Positions 7,950 through 39,409 of a stretch of 64,000 nt of DNA are shown here, piece after piece. Every line of letters begins with the position of its first letter. The stretch's first letter is position 1. The stretch lies in NCBI RefSeq assembly GCF_009914755.1, contig NC_060942.1. One strand, written 5' to 3'. The DNA is from the human T2T-CHM13v2.0 reference genome, Homo sapiens. Both the position numbers and the translations under genes were made by a program. The notes beneath the pieces are model-generated. The model was not told the origin of the DNA. It made no database searches and saw only the letters and a program-made list of their open reading frames with translations.

Positions 7950-8800
7950 CATGGCTTATAGAAAACAATTATGTACTGAATTACTAATTGCATCAAAACT
8001 TTATTAGACTTCTTATCAAAGAGCATGCTCAGATTTATTTATTATTAATAGTAATAAAAATATAAAAATTTAAAAACAATATTATAAGTAACAGAGAAAA
8101 CTATGCACTGTTATGAAAGCCTTTCATATTTAGGGATATCAGGTAAGGCTTCCCTTGGTGGTGAAGATGAAGAGCAAACTAAAATAAAAGTAAGAGCTAA
8201 TTATATAAATCTGGGATGGTAGTGGGAAAAGCATTTGAATAAGAAGACCAAAGTCCAGAAGGCAAGAAAAAATATATCTGAATCATTTAGCTCAATAATG
8301 TTCCTGCCACAAGATGGGGGAGAGAGAAAAGAAACAAATTTTGTACTGCTTGAACCCATTTTTTGACTCTTGATTGGACTCCTAGTACCAATGTGAAGTC
8401 TTTGGGAATTTTTAAGCCAAGCAATTTACAATGTAAATTGTATTTACATTTCAAGTAAGTCATTTTGCATATAGCACAGAAACATTTTTGGAGAGAGAAT
8501 CAGGGAGAGCACTTTAGAGGTGCTCACTGTAGCCCAGGTGAGAGAGTGATGGGGTGGAATCCATAATGGCAATGAAGACAGAAAGAGAAAAATTCATTCA
8601 AGAAATAGAGAGAAGGTAAAATCTGACAACACTTGGCGACTGAAAATGGAAATGTGAAGAAGAAAATGTCAAGAATTACACTGAGATGTCAGGTGTAGGT
8701 AGAGGTCGACATCACTTGCTGGAAAGAAAAAACCCAGGAAGAATACCACTTTCAGTGAAAGAGACATCTGGGTTGCTTAAAGTATCATGAAATGGGACTT
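7950..8800 (-). mobile_element. L2 remnant
   Basis: Purine-rich L2-like motifs (agcccaggtgagagagtgatgg; gaaggtaaaatctgacaacacttgg). Confidence 0.5.
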
Positions 8801-10281
8801 TTCCAGTTCCAGGCAGGTAAGTTAGGAGGGCTCAACCTTGAGGCACAAAAGATGGTGATGGTGGTAACAGTGGCCTTGAGACCAGGACCTATACCAGACT
8901 CCAGAAAGATTAGTGTGATTTGGAGTAGCTACAGACCGGAATATTTCAGTGAAAAACAAAACAAAACATTCATACTTATTCTTGGAATCTTGCTTTATTT
9001 GAAGGAGTAAATAGTTGGGCCTTACAGCTGCAAGTTTTGGTAAGCCCTAAAATGAAGAGAAAATTGTATAAAATGGAAGCAATTCACCAATTCTATTCAC
9101 TAAACATTTAATGATTTTCTTCCAGGTTTAAGTATTATGATAGACATTGTACAGTAATTAATTTATTGACCATCTTCTCTGGTGTTTGTATTAATACACA
9201 AAGAGATATAACTTTAAAAGTATAGTATTGCTTTCAGCTTACACCAATCATTACCCATTATCCCAATTCATTAAATCAGATTGTTTCAGTGATAAGTTAC
9301 ATTTTGAAGTTAATGAAATACTTAAAAGGCTGTGATGTTGTAACTGCAGATGTAGTATGCAAAACACGTTTGATTCATGTTGCTCAACACAATTTCATCA
9401 TAAAATCTTATCTATAAAATAATATTTTTACACATCTATTATTATTCTCTTGCTTTATGTAAACTTTATATCTATCATTTATCTCTATCAAATAAAGTTA
9501 CATTTCTAGTTTTTTATTCCCAACTATAAATGACAGCATTAATTTTTACAAACATTAATGATGAACTATACTCACTCATAACTATTTATGTCTAAGTTTT
9601 CTTAGAGTTATTGAACAATTTCTGAGTAACTAATGGCTAGCCTTTTATTATTCTATGATGATAAATATTTTTCAGTATCCAGGCTTCAGACATATTTTTG
9701 AAAACTTATTTCTCTATGGGTCAAAATTTAAATCAGTTGTAATATGTGATCCACTCACAAATATCTTCTCCAGGCTGAGCTATTAAAATGAAATACCAAA
9801 GTGGCTCCCCAAGACACCCATTTATAGTCTATACGTGCAGTGCAGGGTTCCTGAACCAAGGCACAGTGTAATCAGGGAAATTTTATTTTTTGTTTTCTTT
9901 TTCTTAAGATGTTTCTTATTCCCAGTTATATAAAAATGTATATTACAGGCAAAGAAAAATTAACATGAATGGAAGTAAATATAAAGTATATTCACATTAA
10001 TATCAGCTTTGCTTTATCTATTAAAGTATATGACAAGCTTGCGGTTTTCAGGACCTTGTAACTCCTGGTTCATTGCAAAGCACAGAAATTCTTCAGAGCC
10101 TCAAGAGTTGTGTTTAATGCACTATTTAAATAGTCTCCAACCACTAGTTAGATAGCTTAGCGGTCAAATAGCCTTTGAAATCTCTGTAGACTCACCTCAA
10201 TTGAGCAGTCCTGATAATTTACAGAAGTGTGTAGTGCACTAAGAGATCCCTGATGTATGATGTCTTTGCCTGTAGAGTGTT

Positions 10282-29495: not shown

Positions 29496-29866
<371 letters not shown>

Positions 29867-31427
29867 TGCTCTTTTTGATTAGAGTATATTTTCCTGCACT
29901 TGCTAATAATATTCCTTCTGCCAGGCTTACCATCTTCTTCCCCATTTTTCTTTACTGAGATTTTATCTTCACATCACAAATTAAGTGCTATTCCTTCAAG
30001 AAACATACTGGCTTGCCCAAACTTTGTTGTATCTCTCCCTTCTTAAACTCTTATATCATTCTCATGGCACTTAACACTTTAGATTTTGTGTTTTAGATAT
30101 TGAAATTTCTATCATATGCTTTGATAATAGATTGTGGTTTCTGCAAAGGCAAAGAGTGCTTTCCTCAACTTTGTATCCTTTGGGGTGGGTTTAAATGATC
30201 TCTTATACCTACTAGGTGTTTGATAAATGTTTGTTGTAGCAGATGAACACCTGAAACAGTAATTCAGAACCTTAGGTTCTAGTATTTTCTATGTCACATT
30301 AGTGTGACTTGCAGAATGGCTCAGCTTAGCTTTTCCTATGTATAATGATTTCAGACTAGATGAATTCCAGGGTCCCTCCTGGCCCTTTCAATTCCCTAAT
30401 TTCAAGTAGAATTTAGAAGAAAAAATTTGTAAGCAGCAATTTTATAGTTCTATTATGGAATTTCTACTTGGGGAAAGCTAACATTTCATGATCTCATTCT
30501 TGCTGGATTCTTTCTCAAGATTTTCCATGGAGCTGAAATTTACCCATGACCTTGAGAAAGAAATGCACATGCTTCATGATCCTCACTCCACTTTCTTGTC
30601 CTTAATGCTTTTCCTCTGATGATTGCTCATTTCACACCCCAAAAGCAACTCATTTTATAAACCTTTTACAGCGCAGCAAGCAGTAAAGAATAAGAAATTA
30701 CAAAATATTATATCCTATGAAGAAACACTCTCCTAATGCATCCACAAAGAATCAAGCTCATAATTGCTGGTTTGTCAATTATAATGGTAAAATATGTATT
30801 TATATAATACATATGATATGTTGGATGCTATTGGAGTGAGTTTGGCATATTTATTTATTTATTTTTTATGGTACTCATCCATGTTTCTGTTCATATATAG
30901 GATAACAAATTCAGAAACAATGGGAAAGTAATATATGAAACCTTAATAGAAAATACAATAGAGATTACAAAACACTACCATTTGATTTTTTATGCAAATA
31001 CTTCAATATTCCAATATTTTTACTCACTTGCTAAATAAAGCACATGACTCGAAATGCTAAATAATTCTGTTAGTCTAAATCTTTTAGATAAAATGTTGGT
31101 GAAAAACCAAAATTGTTTGTAAGGTATGTATGACCTTGTTTATTATCTATCACAGACATCAAGATGATCATAGTTAATACCAATTTAAGCTTTATAGAAT
31201 ACTCTTTTAGGCCCAATATTGATATATTAAATGAAGGTATCAGAGAATCTTGTATTTATGGCATCAGGTTATAAAGATCTACTCAAAACCATTTTTGTCA
31301 AAGTTTAAGCACTGGAACAAAAGTCAAATTCTTTCTAAATGAGACACAAATGATTCTTGCTAATAGTACAAATTTTGTCCCATGGGCAATACTATTGTCT
31401 TTTTCTTTTTTAAAACAATTATTTCGA

Positions 31428-31610
31428 TTTTTTTTTTAGATTCAGGGAACACATGGGCAGGTTTGTTAGCTGGGTGTACTGTGTGATGTTGAGGTTTAGG
31501 GTATGGATGATCCTGTCACCCAGGTAGTGAGCAGAGTCCCCAGTAGGTAGTTTTTCAGCTCTTGTTCCCGCTCCCCACCTACCTCCCCAGTGTCTGTTAT
31601 TCCCATGGGT
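31428..31610 (-). mobile_element. L1PA/PB 3'UTR fragment within the TERF1 3'UTR copy
   Basis: ttttagattcagggaacacatgggcaggtttgttagctgggt...gatcctgtcacccaggtagtgagc. Confidence 0.8.
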
Positions 31611-31815
31611 CCTCAGGTATTACTATTTTCAAGTTTTTTTCTTTACATGAAACTACTGAAAGCGAAAGTATGTCACGCTTATAGGTTACTCTGTACATTT
31701 ATCATTCTATTAATAAACATCTTAAGTAATTAAGTAGTATATTAAGGCCATAAACCAAGTCATTATCTCCTGTCAAAGGACTACTGTTATTCAATTGTCT
31801 AGAAAATTCATTTTA

Positions 31816-32115
<300 letters not shown>

Positions 32116-32470
32116 TTAATGGATTATGTTACAGTGTTGAGGTCAGCCTACAGACACAAAATAGGTTAACTGAATTTTTTTTTCATAACAGGTTTTAATT
32201 TTTTCATTGGAACAGGTTTTGGGGGTGGGGATACTAAATGTGGCAGGGTTCAACAAACTTACATTTTATCAAAATAAAGTTCTTAAAGAATACAATGATA
32301 GCACATGCTTTAACTCTTACAGCACAAACCCTCATATTAATTGATGGTCACAGAAAAATACTGTAATGCTTTAAACAAAAGTTTTAAAATACATCAATGA
32401 CACAAGTTTCAAACAAAATACAGTGATCAAAATACTTAACTGTCCTTTCATCAAGCTTTTACAAACACAA

Positions 32471-33688
32471 TCAGTCTTCGCTGTCTGAGCAAATCAGTTT
32501 TAGTTTCTTCGTGGTCCTCCATCTGTCTTTTAATGTGACACTTGTCCGGTTGTTGAATTTATAATGCAATAGTATTTTAGACCAGTTTCCCTCTCCATAT
32601 TTCCTCACGCCAGATCTCAAATTCTTGTCTTCTTCCTGAAGCCATGCCTGTCTTTTTCTAGCTTGATGTTTTTCAGGAGTTACCGGTTGACTCTTTGAAA
32701 CAGGTATTCTGCTTTCAGTGGCTCTTCTGCTTTCTTTTTTCTTTTTTGTACTTTGAAGAGTTCCTACTCTTCTTTCTTTCTTATTAAGGTCTTGTTGCTG
32801 GGTCCCATGTTGCAACTTAGATAAGAAAAGATTCTTATGAGACCTTTTTCTTGTATCCAAACTAGCTTCAGTTTCCATTTCAACATAATTACCATTAAGT
32901 TTATCTTGAGAAGTTATTGTTCTTGTTCTTTTACTTTCTACTACTTTTGCTGCTGCCTTCATTAGAAAGGTTGATGATTTTTCACTTAGCACATAATTCA
33001 CATAACTCTTAATTTTCTCCATCATGTGATTGTAGCTGAAGTGTTGAAAAAAGGAATGAAATGTATCTTTCTGAGAGATTATCATAAGCAATTTGCTTTT
33101 GAGAGGCATATAAGAATTTGGATCACCAAATAGTCTTTCAAAGACTTCTTCTGCTTCTTTAAAGTTGCCATTTTCCATACAAACAGCTATAGCCTGTATT
33201 TTAATTAAATTCTGTATTTCTTCTTGAAGTTTGTCATGTTTCTTTTCAATTGAACCCCAAATTATCAGGGCCGATTCCAAGGGTGTAATTCGTTCATCAT
33301 TTTCAAACTGTGCATCAAGGGTTTTTCCTGCTGCAATTCTTGTCAAAAACTGACATATGTATATCGTTCTCAACTGGTAAGCTGTTAGACTGGATAGTCC
33401 ATGAATAATAGCCTCTGCGCTGTTGCGGGTCCTGCAGAAGTCCTCAGAGCGGCCGTCGCGGAAAGCTCGGCAAAGAGAGAAACAGAGGAACTCGAGCATC
33501 CAGCCGGCAGCCACGGCCTCGGCCTCGGCCTCGGCCACCAGGCCCGCGTCCTCCTCCTCCTCCTCGGGGGCCCCCACCTGCACCTGGCACTTGAGCCGTT
33601 CCTGGCATTCGAACTGCTCCTCGTCGTTTCTCTCTGTTTCTGCCATCTGCTCCTCGGTAGGGTCGGCATCCCTACCATCCGCCGGCAT
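32471..33688 (-). CDS. TERF1P: Intact 405-aa TRF1/PIN2-like ORF (acidic region, TRFH, Myb domain); expression unknown
   Basis: No stop or frameshift from the TSD-borne ATG (33688-33686) to the native stop after ...ICSDSED. Confidence 0.5.
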   Translation of the reverse strand: MPADGRDADPTEEQMAETERNDEEQFECQERLKCQVQVGAPEEEEEDAGLVAEAEAEAVAAGWMLEFLCFSLCRAFRDGRSEDFCRTRNSAEAIIHGLSSLTAYQLRTIYICQFLTRIAAGKTLDAQFENDERITPLESALIIWGSIEKKHDKLQEEIQNLIKIQAIAVCMENGNFKEAEEVFERLFGDPNSYMPLKSKLLMIISQKDTFHSFFQHFSYNHMMEKIKSYVNYVLSEKSSTFLMKAAAKVVESKRTRTITSQDKLNGNYVEMETEASLDTRKRSHKNLFLSKLQHGTQQQDLNKKERRVGTLQSTKKKKESRRATESRIPVSKSQPVTPEKHQARKRQAWLQEEDKNLRSGVRKYGEGNWSKILLHYKFNNRTSVTLKDRWRTTKKLKLICSDSED

Positions 33689-34559
33689 ATTTATTACAAT
33701 TTATTTTTATGAAAAAAGATTAAAAAGAGATATGTCTGCTCTAAGCAGTTACGTGAAAATGGATAAATACAAAAGCAAGCACAAGAGTATTCAGTAGAGA
33801 ATTCTGAGCCTGAACAATCAAGTTTCAGGCAAATCTTGTGTGGTTCATAATTTTAGCCCTTTATTATGCAAACCTGCCCATTCAATTTTCCAATGCAAGA
33901 ACTGTTTGGGGTGATTATCAAGTTATATTTACTGTTCTGTGGATCTACTAAAAGATGCACTATCTTGAAAGAGTCTGTTCAAATTACCTTGGAACACACT
34001 TTTAGATCCTCTTTTGTAAGCAAAAGTTGACAGACTAAAATGTATTCTTTTTTAACTGGCATCAGCATGTGAGACTTTAGAAAAATTGGTAGAGCAAATA
34101 ATGATTCTGTTGCAGAGCCAGACAAATAACTTCCAAATCAACAAATTCAAACAGAGAAAAAAAGTTGCTGATCTTAGATGAATTGCCACGTTGCCACTTC
34201 CTTTCACATGTGTCTTGGTAGAAAAACTCTCATATAGAATTTTTCCCACCCATCAGAAGAAAGTAGTTATTATCTCAATTTCCTATCTCCTCTTCTGCAT
34301 CTCACCTTCTGAGGAGATAAATATTAGAATCTCAAAGTATCCACTGCTAAAACCCAGAGAGAAGGGGTTGGGATGCAAGTTGGAAAAACTGGGAAAGTAT
34401 TAACTTCTGGACTTATCTTCCCCCTCTGGCTTCTCTCATCTCTCTCAGTCTGTCTGTCTGTGTCTCTCTCTATCTTCCTTCCTCTTTCTAAAAGAAGACC
34501 TTGAAAGAGTTTTATGTATATGCAGAATCAAATTTCTCTCATCTCTTCTTCTCTCTTCA

Positions 34560-35890: not shown

Positions 35891-37090
35891 TCAGGGGCTT
35901 ATTTCCCCTTAGCTAGCAGTGACGTCTTTAGGTACAAGTACACACCACCTATAACAACTTAATTTATTGCCTTCTAGGCAAGCCAGGGCAGGGACTGAGG
36001 ACAGTGACAATGTCACCTATCTTCCATTCAGGAGCCTGTGTTTGGTGCAGAGCCCAGGGTTCCTAGGTCCAGCCTATATGCTCCAACGGTGGTTTCCTAC
36101 ACTCAAAGACAATGAACTTGCAGACACATCACAAATGCCCGGTGCTCTGCAAAGCTGTCCTGATTCCTCCTAGCAACATGAGTTGCCACATTTTCTTTAC
36201 TCTAAGATGTCAGGCACATGATCATGGTATTCATCAGGCTGTCTGATCCTCTGATTATATGTCAGTCTCCCAGACTAGATCAGGGGCTTTTCAAGGGCAG
36301 AAGCTCCGTCTTAGTCATCTGTGTCTTCCTCAGGGCCTGTACTTGCCATTTGTTGATAATATGAAAAGAGTTGGGGTTGTGAGGGGGAGGAAGAAGGATA
36401 GTGGAATGAATAAAGGGAAAAGAGGGAAAGAAAAAAGACATGGAGATAGGGAAGGTGTTTGTGCCCATGCCCTCGGTCATAGGTCACTATGGGTGGGCAC
36501 AGGTGTTCAGCACCAGAATGACAGGAAGATGAGCAAGAGAGGGCATCTCTGAGTCAGGGCTGGTGCATTTCTCACACCCAACAATCCAGCTACATCACTG
36601 ACGAATCTGGGATGTTGTACTTTTCCCCACCAGCAGCCCTAGTTGCACATGACAGGCTATCGCCTGCTATTGCACTGACTTCATATAGTCCTAGGACCTC
36701 AGGGTTAATGAGTTCTCAGTTACGTGGAACAGCTTTGTTTGATAGGTTACTCTAGTTTTATATGTAAGAAAACTTGGCGTTCTTATATTATTTAATATAT
36801 TGATTTGCTACATTGTATAAAAAGACAAATAAATGAGACTTCTTTAAACTGTCTTAGAAGAAGTCTCAAGTCTCCTGTGGCTCTCAAACCTCAGTGCGGA
36901 CAGGCACTTCACGACATTTGTTGTCCATAGTGTACTTGTTTGGACAGTTTCTCAATTTCCAAACAGCAGTGATGTTTTTTGCAACAAATAAATTACAAAA
37001 CAAAATATTTCACGTTTTGTCCTCCCTCTGATAGAAATCTTTGTGGTCCTAAACAATTAAAGCTCCTTAGTTTAAATTGGAAGTATTATT

Positions 37091-38482
37091 TTATTTTATT
37101 TATTTTATTTTTTTTTTAATTGATCATTCTTGGGTGTTTCTCGCAGAGGGGGATTTGGCAGGGTCACAGGACAATAGTGGAGGGAAGGTCAGCAGATAAA
37201 CAAGTGAACAAAGGTCTCTGGTTTTCCTAGGCAGAGGACCCTGCGGCCTTCCGCAGTGTTTGTGTCCCTGGGTACTTGAGATTAGGGAGTGGTGATGACT
37301 CTTAAGGAGCATGCTGCCTTCAAGCATCTGTTTAACAAAGCACATCTTGCACCGCCCTTAATCCATTCAACCCTGAGTGGACACAGCACATGTTTCAGAG
37401 AGCACAGGGTTGGGGGTAAGGTCACAGATCAACAGGATCCCAAGGCAGAAGAATTTTTCTTAGTACAGAACAAAATGAAAAGTCTCCCACGTCTACCTCT
37501 TTCTACACAGACACGGCAACCATCCGATTTCTCAATCTTTTCCTCACCCTTCCCCCCTTTCTATTCCACAAAACCGCCATTGTCATCATGGCTCGTTCTC
37601 AATGAGCTGTTGGGTACACCTCCCAGACGGGGTGTTGGCCGGGCAGAGGGGCTCCTCACTTCCCAGTAGGGGCGGCCAGGCAGAGGCGCCCCTCACCTCC
37701 CGGACGGGGAGGCTGGCTGGCCGGGGGGCTGACCCCCCCACCTCCCTGCCGGACAAGGTGGCTGCCGGGCAGAGACGTTCCTCACTTCCCAGACGGGGTG
37801 GCTCCTGGGCGGAGGGGCTTCTCACTTCTCAGACGGGGTGGCTGCCGGGCGGAGGGGCTCCTCACTTCTCAGACGGGGCGGTTGCTAGGCAGAGGGTCTC
37901 CTCACTTCTCAGACGGGGCGGCCGGGCAGAGACGCTCCTCACATCCCGGACGGGGTGGCAGGGCAGAGGTGCTCCCCACATCTCAGACGATGGGCGGCTG
38001 GGCAGAGACGCTCCTCACTTCCCAGATGGGATGGCGGCCGGGCAGAGACGCTCCTCACTTTCCAGACTGGGCAGCCAGGCAGAGAGGCTCCTCACATCCC
38101 AGACGATGGGCGGCCGGGCAGAGACGCTCCTCACTTCCCAGACGGGGTGGCGGCCGGGCAGAGGCTGCAATCTCGGCACTTTGGGAGGCCAAGGCAGGCT
38201 GCTGGGAGGTGAAGGTTGTAGCGAGCCGAGATCACGGCACCTCGGGAGGCCGAGGCTGGTGGATCACTCGCGGTTAGGAGCTGGAGACCAGCCCAGCCAA
38301 CACAGCGAAACCCCGTCTCCACCAAAAAAATACGAAAACCAGTCAGGCGTGGCGGCGCACGCCTGCAATCGCAGGCAGTCAGCCAGCAGGCTGAGGCAGG
38401 AGAATCAGGCAGCAGTACCGTACAGCTTCAGCTCGGCATCAGAGGGAGACCGTGGGGAGAGGGAGAGGGAGAGGGAGAGGGC
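37091..38482 (-). mobile_element. SVA (probably SVA_C/D), all domains present but compact
   Basis: Short (CCCTCT)n at about 38455-38481, Alu-like domain about 38160-38450, VNTR about 37610-38160, SINE-R about 37120-37610, A-rich tail; perfect 18-bp TSD taaattggaagtattatt 37073-37090 / 38483-38500. Confidence 0.97.
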
Positions 38483-39409
38483 TAAATTGGAAGTATTATT
38501 AAGGAAAGTTGAAATTTTATGAAAGTGATTAAATTGAAGATTCAAAAATGTGTCTACATTTGGGAATATAGATTATGACTTTAATGTTAACTTTTTTGAT
38601 CTGATACCATTTCCAAAAATTTAGCCTACAGAAATACTAAAACATATGTGCAGTTATAGGTTAAAAGAATATGATGAAATTATTTGCAGTAGGACAAAAT
38701 TTAAAACAATTCAAATGGTTTTAAAAGGGGATTAAATAACTATATTTAATGATGAGTAAGTAGTAGGTTAAAAAACGAATTATTCTGAATAATAAGAAAA
38801 ATAAAGATTCTAAGATACGTATTCAGTGAAGAAAGTTTCAGGATCACATGTTTGCTATTATTTCATTTTTGCAAAACAAACAAGAATAAAACCAAAAGCT
38901 ACACAGGCACGCGTGCACGCACACCCACACACAGCGCAAGACACTTGTGAATTGAAGGGGGTAATGTTAATATTCACACAGGAACCATCAGCATGATATA
39001 AGAGTGTCAAGAAAACCAGGATCTATAACCACCTTAATTTAATGGACTTTATATTCTGTATTATACCTTACTATCTATAAGAATAAAATTAAATTTTCCA
39101 TACTTAAAGTATCTATAAAAAAAATTGAGTAAATTGTAATCTTGGATCTCAAGTCCAGTTCCTTTAGTTCTCTCAGAACTATCTCCCTTCATTTCAAAGT
39201 TCATGGATTGATTTTTGGTTTTCCTAAAATGTACCACTGTATTTTAAATTTACACATCACCAGGGCATTCTTTTTTCTTGTTCTCTTATTATTAGAACAT
39301 ACATTTAACCCCTTCTGACAATCTAGTCATTGTAAACCTCCCAGCTTTATCAACTGTCATCTTCCAAGTACTCACAGTGCAGATTTCTGGTATTACAATG
39401 GCCTTAAAT

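What the first reader, a model, noticed from the sequence alone, without database searches (positions are those of the whole stretch)
32471..33695. TERF1/PIN2 retrocopy rescued by a start codon inside its own TSD: an intact TRF1 lacking the tankyrase-binding motif
Seen: the copy is 5'-truncated, yet the target-site duplication (minus strand aataaatATGcc) plus one extra G puts an ATG in frame (A at -3). This gives a 405-aa ORF with no stop or frameshift. Known: parental TRF1 begins MAEDVSSAAPSPRGCADG, where RGCADG is the RxxADG tankyrase-binding motif that allows PARylation, release from telomeres and degradation. Here it reads MPADG, so the essential Arg is lost. The TRFH domain (AAGW dimer helix, AQFEN TIN2-docking Phe), the IISQ and SKSQ sites and the Myb recognition residues (ARKR, V.LKDRWR) are kept. 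Inference: if expressed, this would be a tankyrase-insensitive TRF1 able to heterodimerise with the parent and alter telomere length or sister-telomere cohesion. Caveat: I count roughly 20-25 amino-acid replacements against the recalled parent, so chance survival of a neutral ORF is plausible.
Basis: partly seen in the sequence, partly recalled or inferred. Interest (0 to 1): 0.85.

Follow-up and report, generated by a model that had tools for sequence, protein, structure and literature searches.

The report
TERF1P2: open but neutrally decaying retrocopy
This is the annotated TERF1 processed pseudogene on chromosome 18: it does keep a 405-codon open frame that starts at an ATG in its insertion-site duplication, but its substitutions look like those of broken sister copies, so it is most likely an ordinary young pseudogene.

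Summary
Window 32471..33688 (minus) is an uninterrupted 405-aa ORF. Its ATG (33688-33686) lies in the 5' copy of the target-site duplication. The ORF reads MPADG, so Arg13 of the tankyrase-binding site RGCADG is gone. Pfam finds TRF and Myb domains.

The functional reading gets no support.
- **What it is:** an L1-type retrocopy of the exon-7-less (PIN2) TERF1 mRNA. An unfilled paralogous site on chr2 proves the insertion.
- **Spread:** it was later copied by segmental duplication to chr13, where the same 405-aa ORF is open, and to chr21, where it is broken.
- **Selection:** on the lineage to the chr18 copy I count 17.5 replacement and 7.5 silent changes. Three disabled independent TERF1 retrocopies give 70:35 (Fisher p=1).
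- **Conserved residues:** two Myb-domain methionines identical in TRF1 and TRF2 are replaced in this copy.
- **Chance:** with about 25 substitutions, an open frame survives in roughly 10-15% of cases.
- **Start codon:** an in-frame upstream ATG before any stop occurs at 27% of random positions in this window.

Expression, ape orthologues and human variation could not be tested. Interest is low.

The parts
33684..33695 (-). 5' copy of the target-site duplication (aataaatatgcc). It contains the ORF's ATG at 33688-33686. The G at 33683 probably belongs to it, making the duplication 13 bp.
   Evidence: the unfilled chr2 site has a single aataaatatgccg.
32471..33688 (-). 405-codon open reading frame including the stop. 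Codons 1-2 (ATG CCG) come from target-site DNA. Codons 3-405 correspond to TRF1 residues 16-439 without the 20-aa alternative exon.
30867..33682 (-). Body of the retrocopy (RefSeq TERF1P2 30865..33682). It is colinear with 9 TERF1 exons on chr8, has no introns, and runs to the parental 3' end ...gatgagtaccata.
32924..33502 (-). Part coding the TRFH (dimerisation and TIN2-docking) domain, ORF residues 63-255.
   Evidence: PF08558, E=3.5e-38; TRFH crystal-structure chains.
32510..32653 (-). Part coding the Myb DNA-binding domain, ORF residues 346-393. It carries W385Q and M419T. R376Q and M427T lie just outside it, and S434C is an ancestral state.
30867..32470 (-). 3' UTR of the retrocopy. The Alu at 31816-32123 and an L1-like piece near 31440-31620 (my reading of the sequence) are inherited from the parental 3' UTR and are not later insertions.
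   Evidence: the chr8 last exon aligns unbroken to 32649..30979 (95.2% over 1682 columns). One search covers the last 110 nt.
30856..30866 (-). Short degenerate A-rich remnant of the poly(A) tail (aaaaataaata).
30844..30855 (-). 3' copy of the target-site duplication (aataaatatgcc). The next base, 30843, is A where the 5' copy and the unfilled chr2 site have G.

Best explanation
This is TERF1P2, a processed pseudogene.

Shown: an mRNA of the exon-7-less (PIN2) isoform of TERF1 was reverse-transcribed and inserted, with all the marks of an L1-mediated event. The cDNA stopped, or the mRNA began, 45 nt into the coding sequence. The target happened to carry ATGCC(G) in frame, so an ORF of 405 codons opens two codons upstream of the truncated TRF1 sequence.

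Shown: the block holding the insertion was later copied by pericentromeric segmental duplication. It now lies on chr18 (this window), chr13 and chr21.

Shown: since insertion the three copies have taken replacement and silent changes in the same proportion as disabled TERF1 retrocopies elsewhere.

Inferred: the ORF is still open on chr18 and chr13 because the copy is young, about 2% diverged from its state at birth, not because a protein is maintained. I expect no function. If it were transcribed from a promoter in the flank, the product would be a TRF1 variant without the tankyrase-binding site and with a damaged Myb domain.
For: Retrocopy hallmarks:
- 9 of 9 coding exons of the PIN2 form on chr8 are joined without introns.
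- Homology ends at the parental 3' end, followed by an A-rich remnant.
- There is a 12-13 bp target-site duplication.
- A paralogue on chr2 has flanks 87-93% identical to both sides of the retrocopy. There the flanking matches lie 159 bp apart instead of 3000 bp, and it holds a single aataaatatgccg.
- The antisense target reads ...tatttatt/aaaatg. This fits the L1 endonuclease preference TT/AAAA, a consensus I recall rather than tested.

Segmental duplication: the chr13 and chr21 copies share the duplication, the junction and at least 300 bp of each flank.

No constraint:
- Replacement:silent counts are stem 5:0, chr13 16:4, 18+21 branch 3:2, chr18 9.5:5.5 and chr21 10.5:4.5.
- Disabled independent copies (chrX a, chr4, chrX b) pool to 70:35. 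The parent branch has 6:6.
- The chr18 path versus disabled copies gives odds ratio 1.06, p=1. The two open lineages pooled (33:12) reject a parent-like 1:1 proportion at p=0.0012.
- chr21 has CGA>TGA at codon 147, a 3-nt deletion and a 22-nt deletion.

Conserved residues lost: M419 and M427 are identical in TRF1 and TRF2 in this genome, and both are Thr here.

CpG decay: the chr18 copy has lost 4 of 30 CpG sites, against 21 changes in 1142 non-CpG sites.

Chance:
- P(no stop and ATG kept after 25 substitutions) is 0.27-0.36.
- In the disabled copies, frameshifting indels in the coding part run at about 4 per 105 substitutions. The CDS:UTR ratio of indel events is 5:11 there and 4:12 in the duplicated family, by my reading of the event table.
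- Together these give about 0.09-0.16 for one copy staying open.

Annotation and print: RefSeq lists the locus as a curated pseudogene without a transcript (hub table). No paper in the library holds 'TERF1P2'.
Against: - Two of the three duplicated copies keep the full 405-codon frame. By my rough arithmetic the chance that both of these lineages stayed open is only about 2-3%: 45 substitutions, about 1.7 expected frameshifts, and no stop.
- If the indel rate of the 3' UTR were applied to the coding part, one open copy would have a chance of only 0.011-0.015.
- The only indels in the two open copies are in frame: a 6-nt gain each, in the GAGGCC and GAG repeats.
- Counts are small. For chr18 alone, a parent-like proportion of replacements is only marginally rejected (p=0.054), so weak constraint cannot be excluded.
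- The first 300 nt of the copy are still CpG-island-like: GC 0.63, CpG observed/expected 0.79.
- Ancestral states were inferred by majority among five lineages, without a likelihood model.
- No expression, ribosome-profiling, proteomic, ape or population data could be consulted.
Confidence: 0.9

Rival explanations
1. One reading: the chr18 ORF, perhaps with its chr13 twin, is an expressed retrogene. It would make a TRF1 variant that cannot bind tankyrase. That protein would dimerise with TRF1 through the TRFH domain and alter telomere length or sister-telomere cohesion.
For: - The 405-aa frame is open on chr18 and on chr13.
- The TRFH and Myb domains score well.
- Loss of the RGCADG site is real. 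Engineered TRF1 with a mutated site binds telomeres but fails to recruit tankyrase 1 and leaves cohesion unresolved (PMC7335080, passages read).
- The joint survival of two open frames is only a few percent by my estimate.
Against: - The replacement:silent ratio is the same as, or higher than, that in disabled copies.
- The Myb region takes more replacements per codon than the rest of the ORF. M419T and M427T hit residues identical in TRF1 and TRF2.
- The chr13 twin has lost the SKSQ site and carries 21 replacements to 4 silent changes.
- The chr21 copy is broken.
- There is no annotated transcript or nearby promoter feature (hub table). The flank upstream of the ATG is AT-rich, ordinary target DNA, also present at the unfilled chr2 site.
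- No paper was found on TERF1P2.
Confidence: 0.04
2. The locus acts as RNA rather than protein. A transcribed pseudogene about 95% identical to TERF1 mRNA could compete for microRNAs or give antisense or small RNAs that modulate TERF1.
For: - Identity to the parental mRNA is high over the whole 2.8 kb, including the 3' UTR (95.2% over 1682 columns).
- A related TRF1 pseudogene, LOC283523, appears in a cerebellum RNA-seq table and in an exosome proteome list. With short reads or shared peptides, these may be cross-assignments from TERF1.
Against: - There is no annotated transcript here (hub table).
- The 3' UTR accumulates substitutions and indels freely.
- In the siRNA screen, the LOC283523 phenotype was ascribed by the authors to two siRNAs that also match TRF1 (PMC3121770, passages read).
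- Nothing links those reports to the chr18 copy.
Confidence: 0.03

Closest known systems
L1-mediated processed pseudogenes (retrocopies) of human genes; specifically the curated RefSeq entry TERF1P2
   Same: Intronless copy of a spliced mRNA, 5' truncation, A-rich tail, 12-13 bp target-site duplication, AT-rich target and neutral substitution pattern. The coordinates agree with RefSeq (30865..33682).
   Different: The coding frame is still open and has picked up a start codon from the target site. This is unusual enough to notice, but it is expected for some young retrocopies.
Human TRF1 / PIN2 (TERF1, chr8), isoform without the 20-aa alternative exon
   Same: Same domain order: acidic N-terminus, TRFH, linker, Myb. 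There are 22 substitutions against the 439-aa protein over the aligned part. F142, S219 (IISQ), S367 (SKSQ), R380, V418, K421, D422 and R425 are kept; these residue roles are recalled from the literature.
   Different: It lacks residues 1-15, including Arg13 of the tankyrase-binding site. It carries R376Q, W385Q, M419T and M427T in or next to the Myb domain, and D80E, L84F and R99C in the first TRFH helices. Six of the 22 differences are changes on the parental lineage, not in the retrocopy.
Engineered tankyrase-binding-site mutants of TRF1 (TRF1.AA, TRF1.G18P; PMC7335080)
   Same: They lack a working RGCADG site. This shows what a TRF1 without the site does: it binds telomeres, does not recruit tankyrase 1, and telomere cohesion persists (passages read).
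   Different: Those are otherwise wild-type proteins expressed from TERF1 or from a vector. This ORF has 16 further lineage-specific replacements and no known expression.
Mouse TRF1
   Same: A natural TRF1 without the tankyrase-binding motif (PMC9688111, passages read).
   Different: It is an orthologous, expressed, essential gene under constraint.

Membership tests
L1-mediated processed pseudogene (retrocopy) | Colinear with the spliced mRNA, with introns absent | tested here: met
   Nine chr8 exons with GT/AG borders join without gaps in the window copy.
L1-mediated processed pseudogene (retrocopy) | Ends at the parental polyadenylation site, followed by a poly(A) tract | tested here: met
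   Homology to chr8 stops at ...gatgagtaccata. An 11-nt A-rich remnant follows. The tract is short and degenerate.
L1-mediated processed pseudogene (retrocopy) | Target-site duplication flanking the insert, with an unfilled site elsewhere | tested here: met
   There is a 12-nt exact duplication. The chr2 paralogue has flanks 87-93% identical and one copy of aataaatatgccg, and is about 2.84 kb shorter.
L1-mediated processed pseudogene (retrocopy) | First-strand nick at a TT/AAAA-like site | tested here: met
   The antisense strand of the unfilled site reads ggcatatttatt/aaaatg. The consensus itself is recalled, not tested.
Functional retrogene | Open reading frame of near-parental length | tested here: met
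   405 codons, against 419 in the parental isoform.
Functional retrogene | Purifying selection on the retrocopy lineage (fewer replacements than neutral) | tested here: not met
   The chr18 path has 17.5 replacement to 7.5 silent changes, against 70:35 in disabled copies (p=1). The open lineages pooled, 33:12, reject a 1:1 proportion (p=0.0012).
Functional retrogene | Own promoter and transcripts | not testable with these tools
   No RNA data are available. RefSeq lists no transcript (hub table).
Functional retrogene | Open frame conserved in orthologous loci of other species | not testable with these tools
   No primate genomes are held. Among the three human duplicates, 2 of 3 are open.
TRF1-type shelterin protein | TRFH domain | tested here: met
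   PF08558, 132 bits against a cut-off of 25. TRFH crystal chains match at E=1e-123 to 1e-132.
TRF1-type shelterin protein | C-terminal Myb/SANT telobox domain with conserved core residues | tested here: inconclusive
   PF00249 scores 45 bits. However, M419 and M427, identical in TRF1 and TRF2, are Thr, and W385 is Gln. Binding was not tested.
TRF1-type shelterin protein (human form) | Tankyrase-binding motif R-x-x-(P/A)-D-G in the acidic N-terminus | tested here: not met
   The ORF starts MPADG and the Arg is absent. I saw no other R-x-x-x-D-G in the translation on reading it. The motif definition comes from PMC7335080 and PMC9688111.

The most novel reading that the evidence does not exclude
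The pericentromeric duplications of chr18 and chr13 each carry an open 405-codon TRF1-like gene born from a truncated retrocopy and a start codon in its target site. If either is transcribed, for instance in germline, early embryo or tumours with demethylated pericentromeres, it would supply a TRF1 subunit that tankyrase cannot remove. That subunit could poison or stabilise TRF1 dimers at telomeres. This would be a hominoid-specific modifier of telomere cohesion and length.
Probability: 0.04. Interest if true: 0.6.

Novelty: already known. Interest (0 to 1): 0.12.

Why it matters
As it stands, it matters little. The locus is a curated pseudogene, and its open frame is what a young neutral retrocopy sometimes keeps.

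Three practical points follow.
- There are two near-identical open TRF1-like frames, on chr18 and chr13, about 95% identical to TERF1 mRNA. They can capture short reads, siRNAs, guide RNAs and shared peptides meant for TERF1. A published siRNA screen was misled in just this way by a TRF1 pseudogene (PMC3121770).
- The family of retrocopies preserves the ancestral TRF1 sequence. It shows six replacement changes and a Glu-run expansion on the parental lineage since the copies were made.
- If expression were ever shown, the tankyrase-blind variant would be of real interest for telomere biology.

Tried and rejected
- **Cap-derived G.** I considered that the G at 33683 was untemplated or copied from the mRNA cap. 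I rejected this as the first choice because the unfilled chr2 site has G after atgcc. It is not excluded, because all three filled copies have A at the 3' copy.
- **Alu and L1-like piece in the 3' UTR as later insertions.** Rejected: the chr8 last exon aligns straight through them.
- **Plain Nei-Gojobori pN/pS.** It gives 0.59 for the chr18 path, which could be misread as constraint. I rejected that reading because clearly disabled copies give 0.39-0.59 by the same count, owing to transition and CpG bias. I used them as the neutral yardstick instead.
- **Applying the UTR indel rate to the coding part.** Rejected: the disabled copies show the same CDS:UTR deficit, 5:11 against 4:12 events (my count from the event table).
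- **Divergence.** The figure of 56 in 1234 includes about 45 misaligned 5' flank columns, so I did not use it for dating.
- **Literature.** 'TERF1P2' is in 0 papers. Other TERF1P names and LOC283523 appear in 11 papers, 10 of them listed. None of the passages I read (3 papers) concerns the chr18 copy.
- **Not run.** I ran no structure or complex prediction. A close relative of solved TRF1 structures would pass by likeness and would not bear on the open question.
Full report
**1. The observation**

The minus strand of the window holds an uninterrupted ATG-to-stop frame of 405 codons at 32471..33688. The 12-mer aataaatatgcc occurs at 33695..33684 and again at 30855..30844. The ORF's ATG (33688-33686) lies inside the 5' copy, with A at -3 and C at +4.

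Pfam finds a TRF domain (PF08558, E=3.5e-38) and a Myb domain (PF00249, E=1e-11).

Against the full-length human TRF1 chain in the PDB (8ox1_L, 439 aa), the ORF aligns from TRF1 residue 16 to the C-terminus. There are 22 substitutions, a 3-residue gap in the Glu run and a 2-residue insertion (EA). The 20 residues of the alternative exon are missing.

**2. The parent, from the same genome**

A DNA search of the window's own assembly found 18 matches:
- the locus itself;
- two copies matching the whole query, junction included (chr13:17894370-17895594 and chr21:12120379-12121572);
- three further near-full copies (chrX at 73.76 Mb, chr4 at 139.68 Mb, and chrX at 82.18 Mb in two rows);
- two older partial ones (chr2 at 190.4 Mb, 92%; chr18 at 12.2 Mb, 80%);
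- nine exon-sized matches on chr8:73437969-73475186.

The nine chr8 pieces have GT/AG borders. Joined in a script, they give a 419-codon frame starting MAEDVSSAAPSPRGCADGRDADPTEEQMAE. The window copy is colinear with them and has no introns.

Homology begins at 33682, which is nucleotide 46 of the coding sequence. The ORF therefore reads M-P-A-D-G, and the Arg of RGCADG is gone. That RGCADG (residues 13-18) is the tankyrase-binding site of human TRF1 is stated in PMC7335080 and PMC9688111 (passages read).

**3. Proof of retroposition**

- Homology to chr8 ends at ...gatgagtaccata (30867). An 11-nt A-rich remnant and the 3' duplication copy follow.
- The Alu at 31816-32123 and the L1-like piece in the 3' UTR are parental, because the chr8 last exon aligns straight across them (95.2% over 1682 columns).
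- Both flanks of the retrocopy have a paralogue on chr2 (138.36 Mb) at 87-93% identity. There, the points matching window 33800 and 30800 lie 159 bp apart instead of 3000 bp.
- That stretch reads ...cattttaataaatatgccgaacccactc..., with a single copy of the duplicated 12-mer.

The ATG therefore pre-existed in the target. The chr2 site also has G after atgcc. Its 3' counterpart is A in all three filled copies, a CpG transition if G was ancestral. The direction of that change is inferred.

**4. A duplicated family**

The chr13 and chr21 copies share the duplication, the junction ...atgccggcggatgg and the flanks. One insertion was therefore spread by segmental duplication.

- Translated from the same ATG, the chr13 copy is also open for 405 codons.
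- The chr21 copy stops at codon 131 of its frame (CGA>TGA at parental codon 147). It also has a 3-nt and a 22-nt deletion.
- The copies on chrX (two) and chr4 have other flanks. One includes the 60-nt alternative exon. All carry frameshifts.

I used the chrX and chr4 copies as independent, disabled controls.

**5. Test for constraint**

I inferred the mRNA state at the time of copying by majority among five lineages: the parent, the three independent copies and the family consensus. I then placed changes on branches.

| Branch | Replacement : silent |
|---|---|
| Family stem | 5 : 0 |
| chr13 | 16 : 4 |
| Shared chr18+chr21 branch | 3 : 2 |
| chr18 | 9.5 : 5.5 |
| chr21 | 10.5 : 4.5 |
| Disabled controls pooled | 70 : 35 |
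| Parent branch | 6 : 6 |

- The path to the chr18 ORF (17.5:7.5) does not differ from the controls (odds ratio 1.06, p=1).
- The path to the chr13 ORF (21:4) is, if anything, richer in replacements (p=0.14).
- The two open lineages pooled (33:12) reject a parent-like one-to-one proportion (p=0.0012). chr18 alone does so only marginally (p=0.054).
- Plain Nei-Gojobori ratios are below 1 for every pseudogene here (0.39-0.59 for the controls). This is because of transition and CpG bias, so the chr18 path's 0.59 is not a sign of constraint.

That leaves 16 residues altered in the chr18 copy.

**6. Where the replacements fall**

The last 70 codons, the most conserved part of TRF1, carry R376Q, W385Q (two steps, shared with chr21), M419T and M427T.

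The last exon of TERF2 from the same genome reads ...AVMIKDRWRTMKRL.... Both methionines are therefore identical in the two paralogues, and both are Thr in this copy. W385 corresponds to Val in TRF2 and is Gln here. The chr13 copy has SKRQ in place of SKSQ, and A382S. This is the pattern of relaxed constraint.

**7. Chance**

- With 25 substitutions placed at random under four mutation spectra, the frame and the ATG survive in 27-36% of 6000 trials each.
- In the coding part of the disabled controls I count about 4 frameshifting events per 105 substitutions. This gives about 0.8-1.0 expected for the chr18 path, and a 9-16% chance that one copy stays open.
- The coding part has fewer indel events than the UTR in the duplicated family (4 against 12) and equally in the disabled controls (5 against 11). 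The deficit is therefore a property of the sequence, not of selection (my count from the event table).
- Against my reading: the chance that both open lineages survived is only about 2-3% by this arithmetic. With the UTR indel rate, one copy would survive about 1% of the time.
- An in-frame ATG ahead of any stop is found upstream of 26.6% of 200,000 random frame positions in this window, and within five codons at 8.1%. The 'rescue' is unremarkable.

**8. Age and state**

The chr18 copy differs from its inferred birth state at 21 of 1142 non-CpG sites and has lost 4 of 30 CpGs. chr13 lost 6 of 31, chr21 lost 8 of 30, and the chrX a copy lost 14 of 30.

At an assumed 0.5-1 x 10^-9 substitutions per site per year, this puts the insertion some tens of millions of years back. 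That is an inference. The insertion came after the split from the chr2 paralogue and shortly before the spread to chr13, chr18 and chr21, because the stem carries only 5 changes.

The first 300 nt remain CpG-island-like (GC 0.63, observed/expected 0.79). I note this as weak evidence against full silencing. Transcripts starting inside that stretch would miss the ATG.

**9. Literature**

- No paper in the searched library holds 'TERF1P2'.
- Searches for other TERF1P names and for LOC283523 found 11 papers, 10 of them listed.
- In an siRNA screen, a 'TRF1 pseudogene' LOC283523 gave the strongest telomere-damage phenotype. The authors ascribed it to two siRNAs that also match TRF1 (PMC3121770, passages read).
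[quoted passage not shown] It also appears in an exosome proteome list (PMC3407643, table read).
- I could not place LOC283523 on the genome with these tools. My recollection that it is the chr13 copy is unverified.
- Supplements of these papers were not opened.

**10. Verdict**

The sequence description is correct and slightly sharpened. The duplication is probably 13 bp, an unfilled site exists, the copy derives from the PIN2 isoform, and there are twin copies on chr13 and chr21.

The proposed function is not supported. The locus behaves as a young, neutrally evolving processed pseudogene that is already curated as TERF1P2. What remains open is expression, ape orthologues and human variation.

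Noticed in passing
G000:C13:17894377-17895594 (+), locus L002: The chr13 segmental-duplication copy of the same retrocopy also has an intact 405-codon frame from the same target-site ATG. It has 21 replacement and 4 silent changes since insertion, and SKSQ has become SKRQ. The chr21 copy (L003) is broken by a stop and a 22-nt deletion.
   Followed up: yes
G000:C2:138359815-138378189 (L021 holds 138368250-138368800): A chr2 paralogue of at least about 18 kb of the window, 87-93% identical, lacks the TERF1 retrocopy. It is the unfilled site, and probably the older source of the pericentromeric duplication.
   Followed up: partly
L004 (chrX 73.76 Mb), L005 (chr4 139.68 Mb), L008 (chrX 82.18 Mb): Independent TERF1 retrocopies lose homology to the parent at nearly the same point, about 21-24 nt inside the coding sequence (...GGCCCCGAGCCC). 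Two of them have a G where the parent has C just before it. This may mark a germline transcription start downstream of the annotated ATG, with a cap-derived G. The target-site duplications of these copies were not worked out.
   Followed up: partly
chr8 TERF1 exons (L009-L018) compared with all retrocopies: Every retrocopy agrees against the modern parent at 12 coding sites. Six are replacements: Y118C, Y207H, L210F, N279S, L345P and C434S. The parent's Glu run is 9 nt longer than in 5 of 6 copies. The retrocopies thus act as fossils, showing fairly fast change of TRF1 on the parental lineage. Site 974 (L>P) is shared by the parent and chr13 only, which is unexplained.
   Followed up: partly
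window 29557-29869: This Alu is 96-99% identical to many loci. It is absent from the chr21, chr13 and chr2 paralogues, whose alignments skip query positions 8762-9068. It is therefore a young, chr18-specific insertion.
   Followed up: no
window 37090-38483: A block of about 1.4 kb is absent from the chr21 and chr2 paralogues. About 1150 bp of it is 86-95% identical to some 40 listed loci. It is followed by a 250-bp part and a 36-41-nt unit that is tandemly repeated on chrX. It looks like a composite retrotransposon of the SVA type; that name is my recollection and was not tested.
   Followed up: no
G000:C18:12202830-12203105 (L012) and G000:C2:190406623-190407127 (L007): There are two older, partial TERF1-derived fragments: 80% identity on chr18 at 12.2 Mb, and 92% on chr2 at 190.4 Mb with two TGA stops in the Myb part.
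   Followed up: no
window 33388-33688: The first 300 nt of the retrocopy keep CpG-island character (GC 0.63, CpG observed/expected 0.79). Only 3 of 24 ancestral CpGs there are lost on the chr18 copy, against 6 of 24 on chr21 and 10 of 24 on one chrX copy. The difference is not significant at these counts.
   Followed up: partly
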